Made by a program: the position numbers and the translations under genes. Below the pieces are notes generated by a model, which saw only the letters and a list, made by a program, of their open reading frames with translations, was not told the origin of the DNA and did no database searches. 64,000 nucleotides of DNA from Fistulifera solaris (lineage: Eukaryota), in assembly GCA_030295235.1 (NCBI GenBank), contig AP026142.1, forward strand, positions 1 to 64,000, in the 5' to 3' direction. Position 1 is the stretch's first letter. The number at the start of each line of letters is the position of its first letter. Below, piece by piece: positions 1 to 10,316 of this stretch.

Positions 1-453
1 CCTAACTCCTAACCCTAACCTCCTAACCTCCTAACCCTAACCCTAACCCTAACCTCTAACCCTAACCCCTAACCTCCTAACCTCTAACCCCTAACCCTAA
101 CCCTAACCCTAACCCCAACCCTAAACCCTAACCCTAACCCTAACCCTAACCCTAACCCCAACCCTAACCCTAACCCTAACCCTAACCTCTAACCTCTAAC
201 CCTAACCCTAACCCTAACCCTAACCCTAACCTAACCCCTAACCCTAACCCCAACCCTAACCCTCAACCCTAACCCTAACCCTAACCCCAACCCCAACCCT
301 AACCCTAACCCTAACCCTAACCCTAACCCTAACCCTAACCCTAACCCTAACCCTAACCCTAACCCTAACCCTAACCCTAACCCTAACCCCTAACCCTAAC
401 CCTAACCCTAACCCTAACCCTAACCCTAACCCTAACCCTAACCCTAACCCTAA
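1..453. repeat. Telomeric repeat array (CCCTAA)n, chromosome end
   Basis: Continuous CCCTAA units from base 1 with variants (CTCTAA, CTCCTAA, CCCCAA, CCCCTAA). The C-rich strand at the 5' end is the expected orientation for a left chromosome end. Confidence 0.98.
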
Positions 454-859
454 CTGCAAGGAATCGCCTTCCATAATGATTAATGATGAATCAGTTGTCC
501 ACCTCACTACAACAAAGCTCTATGATCATACCCAGCAATTCTACAAAGAGGACACCATTCACATTGGTACAACATTGATCAAAGTCTAACTCTTGATACA
601 ACATTGATCAAAGTCTGTGAAATGGATCCAAATGCACCAACTCAGAACTGCAAATGTCTTTGTTGCACAAAATAATTTTGATACTTTGATTTGCATTTCC
701 AATGAAATCTTCTTCTTTTCCTTATTTCCAACATTTCCTTCTATTCCATCTTCCTTACTCCTTTGTTACTGATTCCTACTTCCTATTTACCTAGTTCTAA
801 GTTCCTTTTCCAAGTTCCAAGTTCCATATCCCAATTTCCAAATTCCTAACCCTAACCCT
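454..859 (+). repeat. Subtelomeric repeat copy 1 (5'-truncated, ends in CCTAACCCTAACCC)
   Basis: Near-identical to 2456-2863 and 2975-3346. It has a pyrimidine-rich 3' part, a terminal telomeric tract at 845-859, and is joined directly to the telomere. Confidence 0.95.
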
Positions 860-2863
860 TCGGACAGTACTATATACAATCCCCATTTCCATTTAATTAT
901 TTAGTTAATTATTTATTTACCTAGTAGGACACAATTATTAGTAGTAGGTTAAGAAAAAAGAAAGACCCAAAACCTCCAAAATCACAGCTCAGCACATTTG
1001 GCATGCAAATTTTGCAGGGAATGTCAACACAATGCCATTCAGTACCCAATACGGAATGTACACACAATGTGCACCAGTACCCAATACTTCCGATTCAGCC
1101 GAAATCTTCATTGTTTCTGTCGCCTCATCCGAAATCGCCAAAGAATGCATCTCAGGCCCATTATCACCTTGTATTTTTGTCAGAAATATGCTCTCAACAA
1201 CAGAAACAAACATTTCCACATCTTTCTCAAATTTTAATCTTTCTTCATGTTTCAACATAATCAACTATTCAGCTTCTTATCACGGACTCAACTGTCAAGT
1301 CCATGGTACCATTGGAGCTTGGCATACGGAGATACAGGGGAAAATGCAACCAGCTGAAAAATGGCTCCTGACCAGACTTAACAAGGGTTCTGACAGTAAA
1401 ACTTCTTCCTTTCTATTCACAAAAATATAAGTGTCAACTTCATCATGCAATTGCTGTCAATTAAGTCCTTATTTTACATCTTTTACTTCACTTCAATGTC
1501 GGATGCCAAAGTGCTGTACCTTTTGACAGAATTTACTCATCCATGTATGCTTAATTGGCAACCAAACTCCTCCATATATCACTTTTTAGTCCGCTGATGA
1601 CACTTGTGTTTCTCAAATTCATTTGAATGACATGGAATGTGTCGGTACAATCCAAAACAGCACTCATTTGGGGTGCGTTTCGCTCATGGTGATTTTTGAG
1701 ACGCCATAACTCCCCCCAAAAATCGCTCAAAACACCCGCTTCTTTTCTCATCCTCCCTTCATGCTCACAATGTATCATATGCGCACCATTTTCAACTGAG
1801 AACGGCAATATTTCCAACTTCAAAGTGTAATTTCTTCAAGCCAACAGGCATGACGATCATGCCATTGCCATTGGTATGAAGGACAGACTGCAGAATTTTT
1901 GAACTGTTGGTGGATGTGAAGGACAGACCGTGCATGGTGACTAACAAGAAGATTTTCACCTTGAACTTTTGCAACAGAACCAAGTTTTACTACAACAAGA
2001 ATGGTCAGAAAATCAGCAATCCCTCTTTCTAGGATGATCATGTCAGTATCAAGCATCCTGCAGAGAGAACTTTTCAAGCATTGAAATTTGTGTGTTTGTT
2101 CCACGATTACCTTCGCTTCTTTCACTTGACAGATTGCTACAATGCCACGGCCCCAGTACCATAACTTTGCAACAACAAATAGAGCACATGCAAAGGTAAT
2201 AATGTTCAGTCCCAAAAAAACAAATCAGAATTCCTTGCATGAACCATTTCAACAGGCATTGGAGCAAGACCCTGCTGGTATCTTTCCTTGCAATGGCAAC
2301 CCTGCGCGCCATTACCATCAAATTCTACTTTCCACATCTAGAGCACCATTTTCTGGTGAGGCCCGCAGGAGAACCCTGTCCCTTGAAAAGCAACGCACCC
2401 TAGTTTGTCACGATGCCCCCGACGCTGACAATATGCCAAGCATGTTTTGGATGCACTGCAAGGAATCGCCTTCCATAATGATTAATGATGAATCAGTTGT
2501 CCACCCTCACCACAACAAAGCTCTATGATCATACCCAGCAATTCTACAAAGAGGACACCATTCACATTGGTACAACATTGATCAAAGTCTAACTCTTGAT
2601 ACAACATTGATCAAAGTCTGTGAAATGGATCCAAATGCACCAACTCAGAACTGCAAATGTCTTTGTTGCACAAAATAATTTTGATACTTTGATTTGCATT
2701 TCCAATGAAATCTTTCTTCTTTTCCTTATTTCCAACATTTCCTTCTATTCCATCTTCCTTACTCCTTTGTTACTGATTCCTACTTCCAATTTACCTAGTT
2801 CTAAGTTCCTTTTTCCAAGTTCCAAGTTCCATATCCCAATTTCCAAATTCCTAACCCTAACCC
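860..2863 (+). mobile_element. Longest copy of a putative telomere-associated element, degenerate
   Basis: Its 3' ~520 bp is shared with the flanking copies and ends in a telomeric tract at 2850-2863. The interior is CpG-poor with stop-riddled ORF remnants. Classification as mobile is inferred from architecture only. Confidence 0.5.
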
Positions 2864-3346
2864 ATTTCCTGGTGAGGCACGCAGGAGAACCCTGTCCATT
2901 GAAAAGCAATGCACCCAAGTTTGTCACGCGATGCCCCCGACGTTGACAATTGCATCAAGCTTGTTTTGGATGCACTGCAAGGAATCGCCTTCCATAATGA
3001 CGCCTTCAGTTGTCCACCTCACTACAACAAAGCTCTATGATCATACCCAGCAATTCTACAAAGAGGACACCATTCACATTGGTACAACATTGATCAAAGT
3101 CTGTGAAATGGATCCAAATGCACCCACTCAGAACTGCAGTTGTCTTTGTTGCACAAAATAATTTTGATAGTTTGATTTGCATTTCCAATGAAATCTTCTT
3201 CTTTCCCTTATTTCCAACATTTCCTTCTATTCCATCTTCCTTACTCCCTTGTTACTGATTCCTACTTCCTATTTACCTAGTTCTAAGTTCCTTTTTCCAA
3301 GTTCCAAGTTCCATATCCCAATTTCCAAATTCCTAACCCTAACCCT
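2864..3346 (+). repeat. Subtelomeric repeat copy 3 (5'-truncated, ends in CCTAACCCTAACCC)
   Basis: Aligns to about 2348-2863 and lacks the internal TACAACATTGATCAAAGTCT duplication seen in copies 1 and 2. Telomeric tract at 3332-3346. Confidence 0.95.
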
Positions 3347-3588
3347 GCTGCTGCGCGCCGAGGGATGGAGCCCCTCCGCGCCGATAGACCCACCTGGGAT
3401 GGCTCAGGTCTTTTGCTCTATTAGAGCTGCTGCTCTCCCATCTGGAGTCCATTCTTCTCTTGTGCAACCTGCCACTTGTATTCCTGGTCGCATCATTCTC
3501 ATTGCATCCTCCCCATCACCCTACATGTCTCATCAGGCTGGTTTTCGTAGTTCTAGCTTAATTTCTTCCTATAGCTGCGTTTTTTCCA

Positions 3589-3609
3589 CCCTAACCCTAA
3601 CCCTAACCC
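3589..3609. repeat. Interstitial telomeric tract (CCCTAA)3CCC
   Basis: Read directly; it closes a ~240 bp segment (3347-3588) unrelated to the other copies. Confidence 0.95.
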
Positions 3610-3854
3610 ATAAGTACAGACGCGTACGTACTGTATTCGGTTCGGTACCCGTACCGGTACGGTACCGTACCAGTACAAAGTACAAGTACCAGGTATCTTC
3701 CGTCATCGCCCTTGCACTCGCACGTCTTTTTTCCCTTTTTTTTCTTGTTTTTCTCGACGTGGCCATCGCAGCGACGAGGGATACTTTTGTTGCAACGAAA
3801 GTTAAGTTTGTCAAGGTATCAACAGCATTTTAGCGGTAATTAACATAACAAGGG

Positions 3855-5843
3855 ATGATTGCTAATACTGGCAGCGCACCGCGTCTTCAGGGAGGTTTTA
3901 TTACCTTGGACACGGTCAAGAACAAGGTAATACTATCGAACGAGAAGCTTTCTCGTTCCTTGCTGATCGACCGAAAGTTTTCTTGCCGGTCTATTGATTT
4001 TTGATAAGCTCTCATTGATGTTGATTTCGCTTTTTCCCTGAAGACTGATGTCAAGAATCGACGCACCAAGATCGTCTGCACGATGGGACCGGCTTCGTGG
4101 TCGAAGGAAGGCTTGGGAAAGCTCATGGACGCCGGAATGAACGTTGCCCGTTTAAACTTCTCGCACGGAGATCATGAAGCTCATGGAGCTACACTAGCTC
4201 GTCTTCGTGAAGTTGCTGCGGAAAAATCTCGTAACATTGGTGAGTGATTCTCATTGAATTCTGTCGATTGCAATTTCGATTCTCCTATTGGGTGTCTCAT
4301 TTATTTTTCTCTTTTCATTCGTTCCATCAGCGGTGCTCCTTGATACCAAGGGTCCAGAAATCCGTACAGGATTTTTCGCGGAAGGCGACAAGATTCATTT
4401 GGTGAAAGGCGAGTCAATCGTTTTGACGTCGGATTATTCGTTCAAAGGCGACGCGAAGAAGCTCGCATGCTCGTACCCTACTCTTGCCACCAGCGTTAAA
4501 CCGGGTCAGCAAATCTTGGTTGCCGATGGCTCGCTTGTTCTAACTGTTTTATCGTGCGACGAAGTACTCGGTGAAGTCAGTTGCCGAATTGAAAACAATG
4601 CCTCCATTGGTGAACGCAAGAACATGAACTTGCCTGGAGTGGTTGTCGACCTTCCAACGTTTACCGAGAAGGATGTCCACGATATTGTCGAGTTTGGTAT
4701 TCGCAAAGGCGTGGAGTTCATTGCGGCTTCGTTTATTCGAAAGGCCGAAGATGTGCGTAAGCTCCGAAAGTTGCTTGCTGACAACGGTGGCTCTCGCATC
4801 AAAAATCATCTCCAAGATAGAAAATCAGGAAGGCTTGGAGAATTATGAGGAGATTCTGGAAGAGACCGATGCTGTAATGGTGGCTCGTGGTGATTTGGGT
4901 ATGGAAATCCCGGCATGTAAAGTGTTCCTTGCGCAAAAGTACATGATTCGTGCGGCCAATATCGCCGGAAAGCCAGTCATTACCGCAACGCAAATGTTGG
5001 AGAGTATGATTACGAATCCCCGTCCAACGCGTGCCGAATGTAGCGATGTGGCGAACGCTGTTTATGATGGAACGGATGCTGTAATGCTTTCGGGAGAGAC
5101 CGGTGCGTATTGAACTGATAGTTTGGCTACCTGTAATCATTATGGCGTTTGCTCACTCCCTATTTTAAACAACTTCAATCTACTATCGTCGCAGCCAACA
5201 GCCCGCACTTTGAAGCTGCAGTGACGGTTATGTCACGCACCTGTTGCGAAGCCGAAGGTAGCCGAAATTACAATTTGCTACATCAGTCGATCCGCAATAC
5301 GATTGTCATGAAGTACGGAAAGTTGACGGTAGGAGAATCGATTGCCAGCAGTGCGGTGAAAACCAGTATCGATGTTGGTGCTAAAGTGATTATCGTGTTA
5401 AGTGACTCGGGGAAAATGGCTGGCTACGTTGCTAAATTCCGTCCCTCCATTCCGGTCTTGATGGTGACGGCAAACTTGGTGGCAGCGCGTCAAGCAAGTG
5501 GTTTGTTGTTGGGTATGCACACGATTTTGGTCGATACCTTGCAAAAGACGGACACGTTGCTGGATCGAACTTTTGCATGAGCTCACTCATGCTGGTCTTT
5601 CTGAGGGCGATACAGTTTGTATTATGGCCGGTCGTATGACTCAAATGAAGGAACAATTGCAGGTCTTTACGGTCGGTGCGAAAGATATGCATTCTTCTCA
5701 CGGTCACATTGTAAGTTGCAATAGACATGTCGCGCGTTTCTGTTTGAAAACGTTTTTTCTCACTTTCGTCGATTGTTTCGTCGAAGCAACATGGAGGTGG
5801 ATTCTTCTTTTCTCGCGGCCTTTTGCTTTCGTACTCGGCTTAA
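3855..5843 (+). CDS. PK: Pyruvate kinase (multi-exon; apparent frameshifts near 4801 and 5560)
   Basis: Motifs [71 protein letters not shown] introns at about 3927-4043, 4240-4330, 5103-5194 and 5711-5786. No obvious targeting presequence. Confidence 0.96.
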
Positions 5844-6106
5844 TTATGAACGAATGCCTTTTTCATTATTATAGTAAAGTTTTTCGAGCTGAAATATGTC
5901 AAGGGTAGTCGTCTTCTGTCGTATAAACATAGGAATGTCATGATATTCGTCGAACTACCAGGAAGTGCCTCTAGCCTCTAGGTAGCTACGAAGTACAGTC
6001 TTTTCGTCGCTCGTTTTTCTCGCTTCACTTTTGGCAAATATTCATTCGATACGTATTTGCAATACGGATTATCAAACAAAACATTCATCAAACAGATAAT
6101 ATAATT

Positions 6107-7119
6107 ATGGGAGGGAAAAACGAAGCCGCAAAGAAAATCTCTCGGAATCCGGCGACTCAAAAGCCCACCGTCCAAGAAACAGCATGTCAATAAAGGATCC
6201 GATTTCAATCCTCTCTGGATTGAGCAATCAAAGTTTCTCGACAGCCTTTCTGAGTTGGAAAAGAATTACTTTTTCGACGAAAAAATGTTAACACGGAACG
6301 TCGTGCCGCACTATGGACGGAACAAGCTGACTTGGGCGAGAGATTAATACGAGATTATGCGTGGTCCACACCCGACGATCGTGCCCTGCGAGTTTTGCGC
6401 CATTTTAGTCCACTAATTGAAATAGGTTGTGGATCGAATGCTTACTGGTGTCGTATGATGACACAAGCTGGTGTGGATGTAATCGGTTTCGACAAGGATC
6501 CGAAGCAAGGTGGGAAAATAACGGTAAACCAGAAAGGGAGTAGAACGTTGCATGCCGGAAGTGGCGACGGCCACTCTTTCAGAGTGCAAAAGGTGGCCCG
6601 GAAGTGTTGCAAAACCCGAAATATGCCAAGCGTACATTATTCTTGTGTTATCCAGACGAAAATGTGCTCGAGACGGACGGAAATATTGATGACGGCGGAC
6701 AAACCAAGTCACTCGGTGCTGCCTGCTTAGAACAGTTTCAAGGTGATACGATTATTCATGTTGGCGAATTGTTTTCCGATTCATCTCTGTCAATAGATCA
6801 GGCGCCTTGGGGAAGATCTTCGAGTTCTGAATTTCAACAGTTGCTAGCTTCCGACTATCATTGCCTGCTACACATGCGTTTGCCAAATTGGTTGCACACT
6901 CGAGATAGTATTTCCGTCTGGCGTCGTTCCAGGACGTGTTCGCTTGTTTTTGCGGCGGAAGAAGACGACGAAGACGACGAGGACGAGGAATATCATTATC
7001 GCCATATCCCTCCGGAAGAAATGTTGCCCGTCGACCGAGCTGCTCCGTGCCTAGCACATCTGTTGAGGGGACCAACACACAAACCGGAGCAATCAAACGA
7101 CTATTCAAGTCCGTGGTAG
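6107..7119 (+). CDS. SAM-dependent methyltransferase-like conserved protein (frameshifted)
   Basis: YAWSTPDDRAL...LIEIGCG motif I, then LFLCYPD, IIHVGE and LPNW, spread over ORFs 6332-6730 and 6604-7119. The start is inferred. Confidence 0.6.
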
Positions 7120-8278: not shown

Positions 8279-10316
8279 ATGGGCTGCAATGCGAGTAAAC
8301 AAGCGACGGGCGGTAACATTGCTACAGACGAAAGAGCAACAACAAACAGCAACAATGATAAAGCGACAGCCCTTTCTCCTGCATCAAACAGTAAAGCAAA
8401 AAGTCCTCGCAATAATCAATCGAATCCAATCACTAGCAGTTTAAGAAGAAACAAGAGTCAAGACGATGGAAAGATTTATCAGTTACTTTTAAATGCGCAA
8501 CAAAAATCCAGCCGAAGCCAAGACAATATTACCCAACAATGTTTCCATCACATCGACAAATGCATCTTATCGGTATCCTTCGCATCATGCGACTCCGCTG
8601 CATGTTGCGGTGAAATTACTCGACTCCACAGCTACCAATGTTCCGGCTATTATCAAGAGTCTTTTGAAAGCGTTTCCCAATGCGATATTTACCAAGGACG
8701 ATCGAGGCAATATCCCCATATATTATGTATTGACATCGCAATCGGGGCGATGGGAAGCACGGGCTATTGTGCTCGATCTACTGGTAGGAACGGATCAGAC
8801 TAGTTTTACCACCGAGTACCTACAACGCAACAATCTCAAATTTGGAAAAGAAAATGAGTGGTCGGCCCTGTACAAGGCGATTCATTCGCTTTCGGATGAT
8901 TTTGATGGAGCAGGGCCGACCGTTTTATACATACAGACATTGCTAGCGGCTTGCAATGATACCAGCTCCGTTGTTGCGAAAGGGAATGCGAGCGATGGAG
9001 ACAAGCCATTGAGTCTGCTGTACCGTCGCTTTACTCGACAATTTGATTTGGCCGAAAAATTCTTTTCCGGGGACAACAGTCGACCCGAAGTTGTAGAGCA
9101 TCGTCAAAAGTACAAAACGGCAGCAGGGAATACGTGGAAGATTATTGAGTCTCTGTTACAGGATGGATTGGAGGCGGATCATCAAGAAGACGACGACGAA
9201 GCCCCTTTCCGGACAGTTCACTGTGCCGTGCAAGTAGAAACACCACCGGATCTATTGCGCTATATTGTAGAGACCAACGCGGACGACTTGGGCATGGCGG
9301 ATCATACGGGGCGATTGCCGCTGCACTATGCTGCAATCTCTAAACCACCTGGCGATAAGAGTCGATATCCCGCGTTTTATACCAAGTATGTCGTTGACGA
9401 ACTGCTCTACAAGTACCCTGAGGCGGCATCTTTCAAAGACAATGACGGCAACTATCCGCTGACTTTGGCCGTCCGTAGTGGTAAGCATTGGATTGGTGGT
9501 GGATTAAAGTCGTTATACGAGGCCTATCCCGAGGCGCTGGAACAAATCAATTTAGACACACACGATGCCTTGCGAAACGCGTTGAGTCTAGAGGAATCTA
9601 CCGGAGTGACACCCAAAGACTATAAAAACTCAGATATCATTCAAGATGAGCACCACGATGCTATCATGCTGGTCCAGCAAAAGAACGTTGAAGTTTCGGA
9701 AGTTGTCACTAGCCTGTGGGCTCACGAAGAAGATCCTGGAGTTCAAATGTTGGGTTGCATGGCATTGTCTCGGATGATCGAGAACGCTGACGGCAATCCG
9801 AGTCAAATACTCCGGATAGCCATGTCAGCTGTACCAGCAGTTGTCAATGCGATGAAGGCGCATGGGAACGAGCAAATAGTTCAAGAAAAAGCTTGTGCAA
9901 CTTTGCAAGGCCTTGCGGTCTGTGATGGTCGTCGTGAAGTGTCGTTTGTTGCAAGCGGTGCGGTCGCTGCAATAGTGGGGGCGATGCAGGCTCATGTAAG
10001 CGATCCTGCTGTTCAAGAACAAGGATGCGGAGCCCTTTCCCAGATAATGAAATACGGTGGTGACGACCGAGCAACAATCGTTGCTAGTGTGAGTGGTTTA
10101 ACTGCGATTGTGAATGCCATGGCTGCACATCGTGGAATTGTGGCTGTCCAGCGAAATGCCTGCATCGCCTTGAAAGAAATGACCGAATTTCCGCACGCTA
10201 ACCTTCCCGATTTACCAAGATCCCATTTGGAACCGTTGTTGGAATCGGCTCGTCGTCAATTTCCTGATGAATGTGAACCAGTGGCAAAAATACTTGAGTT
10301 GCGACTTTCTCAATAA
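8279..10316 (+). CDS. Ankyrin-like plus armadillo-repeat protein with N-terminal MGC acylation signal
   Basis: MGCNASK start; TPLHVAV, GRLPLHYAA and GNYPLTLA ankyrin-like motifs; C-terminal ARM-like repeats (AMKAH..VQEKAC, AMQAH..VQEQGC). One frameshift near 8500-8530. Confidence 0.85.

What the first reader, a model, noticed from the sequence alone, without database searches (positions are those of the whole stretch)
1..3609. Chromosome end built from head-to-tail, 5'-truncated modules each ending in telomeric repeats: candidate telomere-primed retroelement system
Seen: telomere, then 454-859, 860-2863, 2864-3346 and 3347-3609. Every module ends in a short CCCTAA tract. Three modules share an identical 3' terminus (...CCAAATTCCTAACCCTAACCC) but start at different points, all in the same orientation with 5' ends facing the telomere. 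Established: endonuclease-deficient Penelope-like elements (Athena, Coprina, and relatives reported in a pennate diatom) carry reverse-complement telomeric repeats at their 3' end, prime on the G-rich overhang, and form such truncated chains capped by telomerase. Inference: this is a non-autonomous or decayed family of that type extending the chromosome end. No RT is visible in the window.
Basis: partly seen in the sequence, partly recalled or inferred. Interest (0 to 1): 0.8.

Follow-up and report, generated by a model that had tools for sequence, protein, structure and literature searches.

The report
Stacked RusA-gene units at chromosome end
The last 3.6 kb of this diatom chromosome is a stack of four front-truncated DNA units, three of them broken copies of a gene for a DNA-junction-cutting enzyme (RusA), each ending in a tiny telomere-like tag, which shows that the end was lengthened piece by piece, but not yet whether RNA or DNA was the template.

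Summary
A C-strand telomere (1-454) is followed by four head-to-tail modules: 455-859, 860-2863, 2864-3346 and 3347-3609. Each ends in a short CCCTAA-phase tract. Three share one 3' end but start at different points.

The three related modules are not a Penelope-like element. They are decayed or truncated copies of a conserved diatom RusA (Holliday-junction resolvase) gene, followed by a 171-nt CT-rich tail and a 14-nt tract. No reverse transcriptase (RT) and no hammerhead ribozyme were found. The 1.2 kb upstream of RusA in the longest module matches no family.

Contigs of an independent run give a much higher summed word depth over the last ~150 nt of the unit. They also show other downstream flanks there, and longer copies of modules C and D elsewhere.

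My best reading is that units bounded by a telomeric tract were copied repeatedly onto a nearly naked chromosome end:
- RNA template, with RT supplied in trans: about 0.45.
- DNA template, by break-induced replication as for yeast Y' elements: about 0.35.

The whole genome was not available, so the decisive tests could not be run. The scan noted a RusA cassette at another end of this genome before (e1-7505808).

The parts
1..454 (+). Terminal telomere, C-rich strand (CCCTAA)n, with irregular repeats typical of long-read consensus errors
   Evidence: period 6, 73 copies, 92% matches
455..859 (+). Module A: the last 405 nt of the RusA unit (B-type). It holds the C-terminal RusA fragment, stop codon at 673-675, tail at 676-844 and tract at 845-858. 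Its 5' end is joined directly to the telomere.
   Evidence: 2 substitutions and 3 homopolymer indels against 2457-2863; 88.6% to P0019 over 35 aa
860..2034 (+). Module B, upstream part: 1.17 kb with no family match on either strand. It is G-poor on the + strand (G 16%).
   Evidence: no significant hit; composition
2035..2678 (+). Module B: RusA-family pseudogene. It has an in-frame TAG at 2401-2403, a 7-nt tandem duplication at 2477-2490, a 29-nt insertion at 2571-2599 and its stop codon at 2676-2678. The start is approximate.
   Evidence: tblastn with P0001, P0019 and the L001 ORF
2679..2849 (+). Module B: 171-nt CT-rich tail (G 6%). Its last ~70 nt form a degenerate 7/21-nt repeat. No fold is predicted.
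   Evidence: period 7/21; z +0.59
2850..2863 (+). 14-nt C-strand telomeric tract that ends module B. Identical tracts end module A (845-858) and module C (3332-3345).
2864..3346 (+). Module C: the last 483 nt of a RusA unit from a different source copy, without the 7-nt and 29-nt insertions. It holds the RusA C-terminal half (Pfam RusA on 2903-3040), stop codon at 3159-3161, tail, and tract at 3332-3345.
   Evidence: PF05866, E 2.2e-7, 32 bits against a cut-off of 22.8; 90% to P0019 over 50 aa; (X3 contig identical over 2862-3103 but continuing upstream as RusA)
3347..3609 (+). Module D: 263 nt unrelated to modules A-C, ending in a 22-nt tract at 3588-3609. It is a 5'-truncated copy of a longer sequence present elsewhere in the organism.
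   Evidence: no similarity elsewhere in the window; table 7 (255-nt loose end before 3353); (no Pfam family)
3610..4007 (.). Unique DNA proximal to the innermost tract, including a GTAC-rich repeat at 3638-3689. This is probably the original subtelomere and promoter region.
   Evidence: (no repeats)
4008..5580 (+). First ordinary gene, pyruvate kinase (with an intron). It marks the start of unique chromosome sequence.
   Evidence: PF00224, E 7e-20 to 2.5e-55; PF02887, E 1.7e-17

Best explanation
The chromosome once ended at the 22-nt tract at 3588-3609, about 400 bp from the pyruvate kinase gene. It was then lengthened four times, or in one chained event. Each time a template whose proximal boundary is a short C-strand telomeric tract was copied, primed by a G-strand end that had lost nearly all its telomere.

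Three of the four templates were copies of one unit: about 1.2 kb of unknown sequence, a RusA resolvase gene, a 171-nt CT-rich tail, and CCTAACCCTAACCC. The fourth (D) belongs to another family with the same kind of end.

I think the template was most likely RNA. An RNA carrying the tract at or near its 3' end pairs with the G-strand end, and a reverse transcriptase supplied in trans copies it. Copying stops early, or jumps to the 3' end of the next RNA, which gives 5'-truncated modules. Telomerase finally caps the outermost module.

On this reading the RusA unit is a non-autonomous rider. The A/B-type copy carries a stop codon and two frame-breaking insertions and still multiplied.

Shown: the anatomy, the RusA identity, the pseudogene state, and contig evidence from another run that the 3' end lies next to other flanks and that longer copies exist.

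Inferred: the order of events, the priming step, the RNA template and the trans RT.
For: - Terminal, one-polarity chain with a fixed 3' end and three different 5' ends.
- The tract is the same 14 nt at three junctions whose right-hand partners are three unrelated sequences. So it comes with the incoming unit and is not a remnant of a long telomere.
- A second, unrelated family (D) has the same kind of end and is also 5'-truncated relative to copies elsewhere (table 7).
- In run X1 the summed word depth is 24-37 over 1001-2200 and 71 in the 2201-2400 bin. It is 93-118 over 2801-3200 and 273-527 over the bins that hold the last ~150 nt of the unit. This is the gradient expected from 5' truncation. 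The tool warns that depth is not copy number (table 2).
- Loose ends show the same 3' end followed by other flanks: X1 behind 3346 and X3 behind 856 (table 7).
- The RusA ORF is in the sense orientation, pointing to the centromere, as in EN-deficient PLEs (PMC13159263, passages).
- The whole unit is A-rich and G-poor on the sense strand (G 16-17%, against 27% in the neighbouring PK gene).
- Coprina-type telomere-primed elements are reported from a related pennate diatom, Phaeodactylum (PMC13159263, passage).
- In the MoTeR system, newly acquired and differently truncated elements were read as transposition, not BIR (PMC7367193, passage).
Against: - There is no RT in the window. Of the 11 ORFs from the array, one is RusA and none is an RT. 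None of the 3 module-D ORFs matched any Pfam family.
- No hammerhead ribozyme and no poly(A).
- No evidence on RNA could be obtained.
- The unit includes 1.17 kb upstream of the RusA ORF with no recognisable sense ORF. That would be natural for a DNA-level copy.
- The cargo is a recombination enzyme, as in recombination-spread subtelomeric elements (Y', telomere-linked helicases).
- Module A is nearly identical to the adjacent module B. BIR within the array followed by erosion explains this equally well.
- Short interstitial tracts may simply be the only ones that survive. In MoTeR ends, tracts of two repeats or fewer are stable (PMC7367193, passage).
- An earlier follow-up on another end of this genome found no proof of a retroelement (e1-7505808).
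Confidence: 0.45

Rival explanations
1. A DNA-templated, Y'-like subtelomeric repeat. The RusA unit is a subtelomeric element bounded proximally by an old, shrunken telomeric tract. A critically short telomere invades the tract at another end, or on the sister chromatid, and break-induced replication copies everything distal to it. The new terminal unit is later eroded from its distal side and healed by telomerase. Repeating the cycle gives the stack. RusA would be a telomere-linked recombination gene, like the Y' and TLH helicases.
For: - The geometry matches tandem Y' elements separated by short telomeric tracts (recalled) and MoTeR arrays extended by BIR or D-loops (PMC7367193, passages).
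- The cargo is a Holliday-junction resolvase and not an RT.
- The unit carries 1.17 kb of upstream non-coding-looking DNA.
- Module A is 99.5% identical to the adjacent module B and has the same 14-nt tract. This is as expected if B was duplicated from the sister's own tract and then eroded.
- Module D is easily explained as a scrap of another subtelomere.
- 1-2 nt in-phase seeds at the 5' junctions of modules A and C fit telomerase healing (and direct reading).
Against: - It needs four rounds of deep erosion at one end, each leaving 22 nt or less of telomere, in a telomerase-positive organism.
- Fourteen nt is very short homology for strand invasion.
- The sharp rise of word depth in the last ~150 nt fits polymerase-type 5' truncation better than uniform erosion.
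- The sense orientation of the ORF and the strand-asymmetric composition are not predicted by this model.
Confidence: 0.35
2. The modules are the 3' part of an autonomous, Terminon- or Coprina-like element. Its RT lies further 5' in full-length copies that are absent from this window, and RusA is its 3'-most accessory ORF.
For: - Terminons accumulate extra ORFs in one orientation and are often 5'-truncated (PMC5537684, passage).
- Word depth over the module B body is about single-copy level, so long copies are rare.
- The RusA family is conserved and intact in several diatom-like metagenome organisms. Eight of the 9 relatives lie on contigs of 4.4 kb or less.
Against: - There is no RT signal in the 2 kb of module B.
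- No hammerhead motif, which is reported for all EN-deficient PLEs (PMC8557442, passage).
- The one relative with flanks held here (L001) shows no RT within 255 nt upstream and no telomeric tract within 145 nt downstream.
Confidence: 0.08
3. Assembly artefact: the stack was created by mis-joining long reads from several chromosome ends.
For: - The window comes from an error-prone long-read assembly. One-base indels break the pyruvate kinase frame, and X1 contigs contradict them at 4801 and 5565.
- No contig piece shown bridges a module junction.
Against: - The array is only 3.2 kb. If the window is the published F. solaris nanopore assembly, its reads average 11.6 kb (bioRxiv 10.1101/2021.11.10.468027, passage).
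- The junctions are clean.
- Each module is supported piecewise by independent contigs.
- Such stacks are biologically well known.
Confidence: 0.03

Closest known systems
Endonuclease-deficient Penelope-like elements (Athena, Coprina incl. Pt1 of Phaeodactylum, Terminons)
   Same: They sit at chromosome ends with ORFs pointing to the centromere. They carry short reverse-complement telomeric repeats at the 3' end and are often 5'-truncated (PMC8557442, PMC5537684, PMC13159263, passages).
   Different: Here there is no RT and no hammerhead ribozyme, no pLTR-like repeats were recognised, and the only recognisable gene is RusA. It may work like one, but membership is not supported.
MoTeR1/MoTeR2 of Magnaporthe oryzae (and FoTeRs of Fusarium)
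   Same: Their arrays lie inside telomeres with 5' ends facing the chromosome end. Short interstitial telomere tracts separate the copies, and truncated copies are capped by telomerase from 1-7 nt seeds. MoTeR2 is an RT-less partner that shares its ends with MoTeR1. Both transposition and BIR extend the arrays (PMC7367193, passages; the FoTeR paper was seen only in the search listing).
   Different: MoTeRs have variant telomere-like repeats at the 5' end and an RT-bearing master. Neither is seen here. The host is a fungus, and they do not carry RusA.
Yeast Y' elements and telomere-linked helicase (TLH) gene families (recalled, not read here)
   Same: They are subtelomeric units that encode a DNA-metabolism enzyme. 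They are stacked head-to-tail with short telomeric tracts between them and spread between ends by recombination.
   Different: The enzyme here is a RusA-type resolvase, not a helicase. The copies are progressively 5'-truncated and not full-length.
RusA Holliday-junction resolvase (Pfam PF05866; phage and bacterial)
   Same: The cargo ORF matches the RusA profile. Intact relatives keep the PD-x-DN...K...D...D core.
   Different: The diatom family has a conserved N-terminal extension and a C-terminal CxCxxC motif. It is only 28-47% identical to phage and giant-virus homologues. A family profile finds no PDB chain at E<=0.01. The window copies are broken.

Membership tests
EN-deficient Penelope-like elements (Athena/Coprina/Terminon) | PLE-type reverse transcriptase ORF | tested here: not met
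   Pfam scans of stop-to-stop ORFs from the array found no RT: 11 ORFs of 1-3843 (one is RusA) and 3 module-D ORFs. A PHROGs scan of 13 ORFs gave nothing significant. Only this window could be tested, because the genome is not held.
EN-deficient Penelope-like elements (Athena/Coprina/Terminon) | Short reverse-complement telomeric repeats at the 3' end | tested here: met
   CCTAACCCTAACCC lies at 845-858, 2850-2863 and 3332-3345, and a 22-nt tract at 3588-3609.
EN-deficient Penelope-like elements (Athena/Coprina/Terminon) | Hammerhead ribozyme motif next to the 3' repeats | tested here: not met
   Rfam (all families, E<=1) found nothing in 1-4200. None of the 4 window matches to the core pattern CTGANGA...GAAA lies in 1-3700. 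The tail is not structured.
EN-deficient Penelope-like elements (Athena/Coprina/Terminon) | Terminal location, ORFs towards the centromere, 5'-truncated copies | tested here: met
EN-deficient Penelope-like elements (Athena/Coprina/Terminon) | Copies confined to chromosome ends genome-wide | not testable with these tools
   No genome is held. Within the window, none of the other 60 kb holds a copy.
MoTeR-type telomeric non-LTR retrotransposons | Variant telomere-like repeats at the element's 5' end, and an RT-bearing master sharing both ends | tested here: not met
   Module B starts at 860 with TTCGGACAG, without variant repeats. No RT was found. Module B may itself be truncated, so this is weak.
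Y'-like recombination-spread subtelomeric repeat | Head-to-tail units separated by short telomeric tracts at the chromosome end | tested here: met
Y'-like recombination-spread subtelomeric repeat | Copies at different ends share identical boundaries and distal flanks (spread by BIR or gene conversion) | not testable with these tools
   This needs the other chromosome ends. The loose ends show other proximal flanks but not the distal ones.
RusA resolvase (PF05866) | Profile match above Pfam's gathering score | tested here: met
   Window 2903-3040 scores 32 bits against a cut-off of 22.8 (E 2.2e-7). The intact relative P0019 scores 65.5 bits.
RusA resolvase (PF05866) | Intact ORF with the acidic catalytic core | tested here: not met
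   Modules A and C are 5'-truncated. Module B has a TAG at 2401-2403 and 7-nt and 29-nt insertions. The PD-x-DN...D...D core is kept in the fragments and is invariant in 10 of 10 family members. Some one-base frameshifts may be assembly errors (table 4).

The most novel reading that the evidence does not exclude
Diatoms harbour an RT-less, RusA-carrying terminal element. Its RNA ends in a telomerase-template-like CCUAACCCUAACCC and is copied straight onto naked chromosome ends. The copying enzyme would be a Coprina-type RT or telomerase itself running past the template. This would be a back-up end-extension system that couples a telomere-primed retroelement to a Holliday-junction resolvase.
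Probability: 0.3. Interest if true: 0.8.

Novelty: new variant of a known kind. Interest (0 to 1): 0.55.

Why it matters
Chromosome ends built from stacked, truncated units are known from rotifers, fungi and flies, but they are hardly described in algae. Here the repeated unit carries a phage-type Holliday-junction resolvase instead of a reverse transcriptase or a helicase.

If the unit is RNA-copied, it is a new kind of rider on telomere-primed reverse transcription, in a lineage where such elements are barely studied. That bears on the link between telomerase and Penelope-like elements.

If the unit is DNA-copied, it is a diatom counterpart of yeast Y', with a resolvase as the telomere-linked gene. 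That would point to recombination-based end repair in diatoms.

Either way it shows how this chromosome end was rebuilt after telomere loss. It also singles out a conserved, unstudied nuclear RusA family in diatoms. My three full-text searches pairing RusA or Penelope-like elements with diatoms, telomeres or subtelomeres found no paper on this.

Tried and rejected
- Whole-genome search: no genome is held. So I have no copy census and no tBLASTn for PLE RTs.
- ORF 2130-2528 as a protein query: no hit.
- The 45-aa RusA core against 1.84 billion representatives: 3 weak hits only.
- Upstream 860-2034. I could not reproduce that on this copy with Pfam, PHROGs (best E 0.012, an unrelated family), PDB sequences or the ESM Atlas.
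- An apparent resemblance between the minus-strand ORF and the ORF upstream of RusA in L001 was not supported by tblastx.
- Metagenome relatives: 34 loci were found, and only L001 is of the diatom type. None of the 34 holds two or more telomeric repeats.
- Viral contigs: 74 distant RusA loci at 28-47% identity, uninformative for the mechanism.
- Exact-pattern scans for the tail end in genome contigs and viral contigs: 0 hits.
- A profile of the family against PDB sequences: 0 hits at E<=0.01.
- Sequencing runs: no RNA holder is listed. This says nothing about expression.
- The contig pieces shown did not bridge the module junctions, and 73 of 93 pieces were not shown.
- Gladyshev and Arkhipova 2007 is not held. 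Its content is cited only through later papers or from recall.
- I considered repeat phase at the junctions as a discriminator. I dropped it because 1-2 nt seeds fit both telomerase healing and RNA priming.
- I considered equal tract length as evidence for the RNA model. I weakened it because short tracts may simply be the stable survivors (PMC7367193).
- Simple tandem duplication followed by deletions was rejected. It would need three deletions that each start exactly at the end of a tract.
- A DNA transposon was rejected: there are no inverted repeats of 30 nt or more.
Full report
**1. The observation**

The window starts with a C-strand telomere. Tandem Repeats Finder reports a period-6 array at 1-454 (73 copies, 92% matches). 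Its irregular repeats look like long-read consensus errors.

The 14-mer CCTAACCCTAACCC occurs 45 times in the 64-kb window. All 45 are on the + strand and inside 1-3609, against 0.00 expected in 100 shuffles. The internal copies lie at 845-858, 2850-2863, 3332-3345 and 3590-3609.

- A is 455-859.
- B is 860-2863.
- C is 2864-3346.
- D is 3347-3609.

A equals the last 405 nt of B. It differs by 2 substitutions and 3 one-base homopolymer indels. C equals 2348-2863 of B at 96.0% over aligned bases (19 mismatches in 478), plus indels of 29, 6 and 1-2 nt. A, B and C all end in ...CCAAATTCCTAACCCTAACCC.

D is unrelated in sequence and ends in a 22-nt tract. There are no inverted repeats of 30 nt or more in 1-6000. 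No further copy lies in the other 60 kb.

The first ordinary gene, pyruvate kinase, begins about 400 bp inside the innermost tract.

**2. What the modules contain**

They are not Penelope-like in content. The ORF at 2903-3040 matches Pfam RusA (PF05866; E 2.2e-7; 32 bits against a cut-off of 22.8). No other of the 11 array ORFs scanned matches a family, and none matches an RT.

A metagenome protein (P0001, 146 aa, named a RusA-like endonuclease by its source) is 78% identical. A second search found 9 further relatives of 146-256 aa, all carrying PF05866.

One 90%-identity cluster holds an intact 219-aa protein (P0019) and GAX27884.1, 'hypothetical protein FisN_13Hu002' of Fistulifera solaris. 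P0019 is 90% identical to the module C peptide over 50 aa. This fits the organism named in earlier notes of this scan.

Ten family members share three features:
- a conserved N-terminal extension;
- the invariant core PD-x-DN-C-x-KL..DA-x-Q...D;
- a C-terminal CxCxxC motif in nine of the ten.

Mapped on B, the RusA reading frame runs from about 2035 to the stop at 2676-2678. A 171-nt CT-rich tail follows (G 6%). Its last ~70 nt form a degenerate 7/21-nt repeat. The tail has no predicted fold (z +0.59). Then comes the 14-nt tract.

B is a pseudogene. It has an in-frame TAG at 2401-2403, a 7-nt tandem duplication at 2477-2490 and a 29-nt insertion at 2571-2599. A shares the two insertions and C lacks both.

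So A and B come from one already broken source copy, and C comes from another source closer to the intact gene. A metagenome contig (X3) is identical to C over 2862-3103 but continues upstream as RusA (tables 7 and 8).

Caution on frameshifts. The window carries one-base indels that X1 contigs contradict even inside pyruvate kinase (4801 and 5565; table 4). The PK profile changes frame near 4800. Single-base frameshifts in the modules are therefore not evidence of decay. The stop codon and the 7-nt and 29-nt insertions are.

The 1.17 kb upstream of RusA in B (860-2034) matches nothing in Pfam, PHROGs, PDB sequences or the ESM Atlas.

**3. Evidence from outside the window**

No genome is held. 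I laid the contigs of four public runs on 1-6000. Run X1 holds 61% of the sampled words and contains intron and intergenic sequence, so it is DNA of the same or a very close organism.

Its summed word depth varies along the stretch:
- about 12-58 over the unique region (3601-6000);
- 24-37 over 1001-2200, and 71 in the 2201-2400 bin;
- 93-118 over 2801-3200;
- 273 and 527 in the two bins that hold the ends of modules A and C;
- 88 over D.

The tool warns that this figure is not a copy number, so I take it only as a hint of a 3'-biased multi-copy family.

The loose ends tell more:
- Behind 3346, two X1 contigs continue with one more telomeric repeat and then a different flank.
- An X3 contig holds the last 42 nt of the unit and then 600 nt of other sequence.
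- Before 2862, X1 and X3 contigs continue as RusA.
- Before 3353, an X1 contig continues 255 nt upstream of D's start.

So the 3' end of the unit is fixed and sits next to various flanks. Both C and D are truncated versions of longer sequences. No piece shown bridges a module junction, and only 20 of 93 pieces were shown.

**4. Mechanism**

The innermost tract marks the former chromosome end. D, C, B and A were then added outward, all in one polarity.

The tract has the same 14 nt at three junctions whose inner partners are three unrelated sequences: B's, C's and D's 5' ends. It therefore comes with the incoming unit, and the receiving end had almost no telomere left.

Simple tandem duplication plus deletions is excluded, because it would need three deletions that each start exactly at a tract's end. 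A DNA transposon is excluded, because there are no terminal inverted repeats.

What remains is template copying primed from a nearly naked G-strand end. The template is either RNA or DNA.

For RNA (a reverse transcriptase in trans):
- Four differently truncated modules need no erosion steps. One uncapping episode with template jumps could make them all.
- The depth rises sharply at the 3' end.
- The ORF is in the sense orientation, pointing to the centromere.
- The sense strand is A-rich and G-poor across the whole unit, unlike the neighbouring host gene.
- Coprina elements are reported from the pennate diatom Phaeodactylum (PMC13159263, passage).
- In the MoTeR system, newly acquired, uniquely truncated elements were read as transposition (PMC7367193, passage).

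For DNA (break-induced replication from the tract, then erosion and healing, as for yeast Y'; recalled):
- There is no RT, no hammerhead ribozyme and no poly(A).
- The cargo is a recombination enzyme.
- The unit includes 1.17 kb of unassigned upstream DNA.
- A is nearly identical to its neighbour B.
- The same MoTeR study shows that BIR and D-loop extension build similar arrays, and that interstitial tracts of two repeats or fewer are the stable ones. Uniform short tracts may therefore be survivors.

I put the RNA route at about 0.45, the DNA route at about 0.35, a truncated autonomous Terminon-like element at about 0.08, and an assembly artefact at about 0.03.

**5. Comparison with known systems**

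The array works like the terminal chains of EN-deficient Penelope-like elements. It also resembles MoTeR1/MoTeR2 arrays.

Membership in the PLEs is not supported. The RT and the hammerhead motif were tested and not found. The 3' telomeric tract, the terminal position, the polarity and the 5' truncation were tested and are met.

It also resembles Y' and telomere-linked-helicase repeats, with a resolvase in place of the helicase.

The cargo is a member of the RusA family by profile. The diatom proteins form their own branch with extra N- and C-terminal features. They are 28-47% identical to the phage and giant-virus homologues found in 74 viral loci. A family profile finds no PDB chain at E<=0.01.

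**6. Novelty and verdict**

My full-text searches for Penelope-like + telomere + diatom, RusA + diatom and RusA + Holliday junction + subtelomer found no paper describing a RusA unit at diatom chromosome ends.

This scan had already noted a RusA cassette at another end of the same genome (e1-7505808). Its follow-up also found no proof of a retroelement. The present window adds three things: the four-module stack, a second family with the same kind of end, and the read-based evidence for a fixed 3' end with various flanks.

I rate it a new variant of a known kind, with interest 0.55. The central claim of an RNA template remains untested because the genome, raw reads and RNA data were out of reach.

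Noticed in passing
window 4008-5580: The pyruvate kinase gene is read in overlapping frames. The PK profile switches frame near 4800, and an extra C near 4200 breaks the frame by eye. Independent contigs lack one base at 4801 and at 5565. The window therefore carries one-base assembly indels, which matters for any frameshift call in this genome.
   Followed up: partly
window 3625-3692: A GTAC-rich, partly palindromic repeat (CGGTAC/GTACC units, period 5-16) lies directly inside the innermost telomeric tract. Its role is unknown. It may be an original subtelomeric motif.
   Followed up: no
proteins P0009-P0019, L001:256-939: There is a conserved diatom-type RusA family of 214-256 aa. It has a basic or low-complexity N-terminus, a conserved motif (CKI-G-PRPQYR-FATT) and a C-terminal CxCxxC. 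Members are intact in several metagenome organisms. It appears undescribed and is distinct from the plastid-targeted RusA noted earlier in this genome.
   Followed up: partly
window 780-852, 2776-2852, 3259-3334: The last ~70 nt of the unit form a degenerate 7/21-nt repeat (TTCCAAG-like). It grades into perfect CCCTAA towards the centromere side. That is the opposite of the gradient expected for an old telomere.
   Followed up: partly
window 1018-1087: A 35-nt tandem duplication (2 copies, 80-83% alike) lies in the unassigned upstream part of module B. One contig of run X1 also skips 123 nt at 1600-1722, so length variants of this region exist.
   Followed up: no
window 8493-10316: A long ORF of 607 aa carries ankyrin and ARM/HEAT-like repeats, and a possible methyltransferase fragment lies at 6254-6730. 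These are ordinary neighbours and were not studied.
   Followed up: no
Read-laying runs X2-X4: Near-identical pieces of the RusA unit (0-5 mismatches per 150-360 nt) occur in another labelled organism and in freshwater and riverine metagenomes. So the unit, or this diatom, is present in environmental samples.
   Followed up: no
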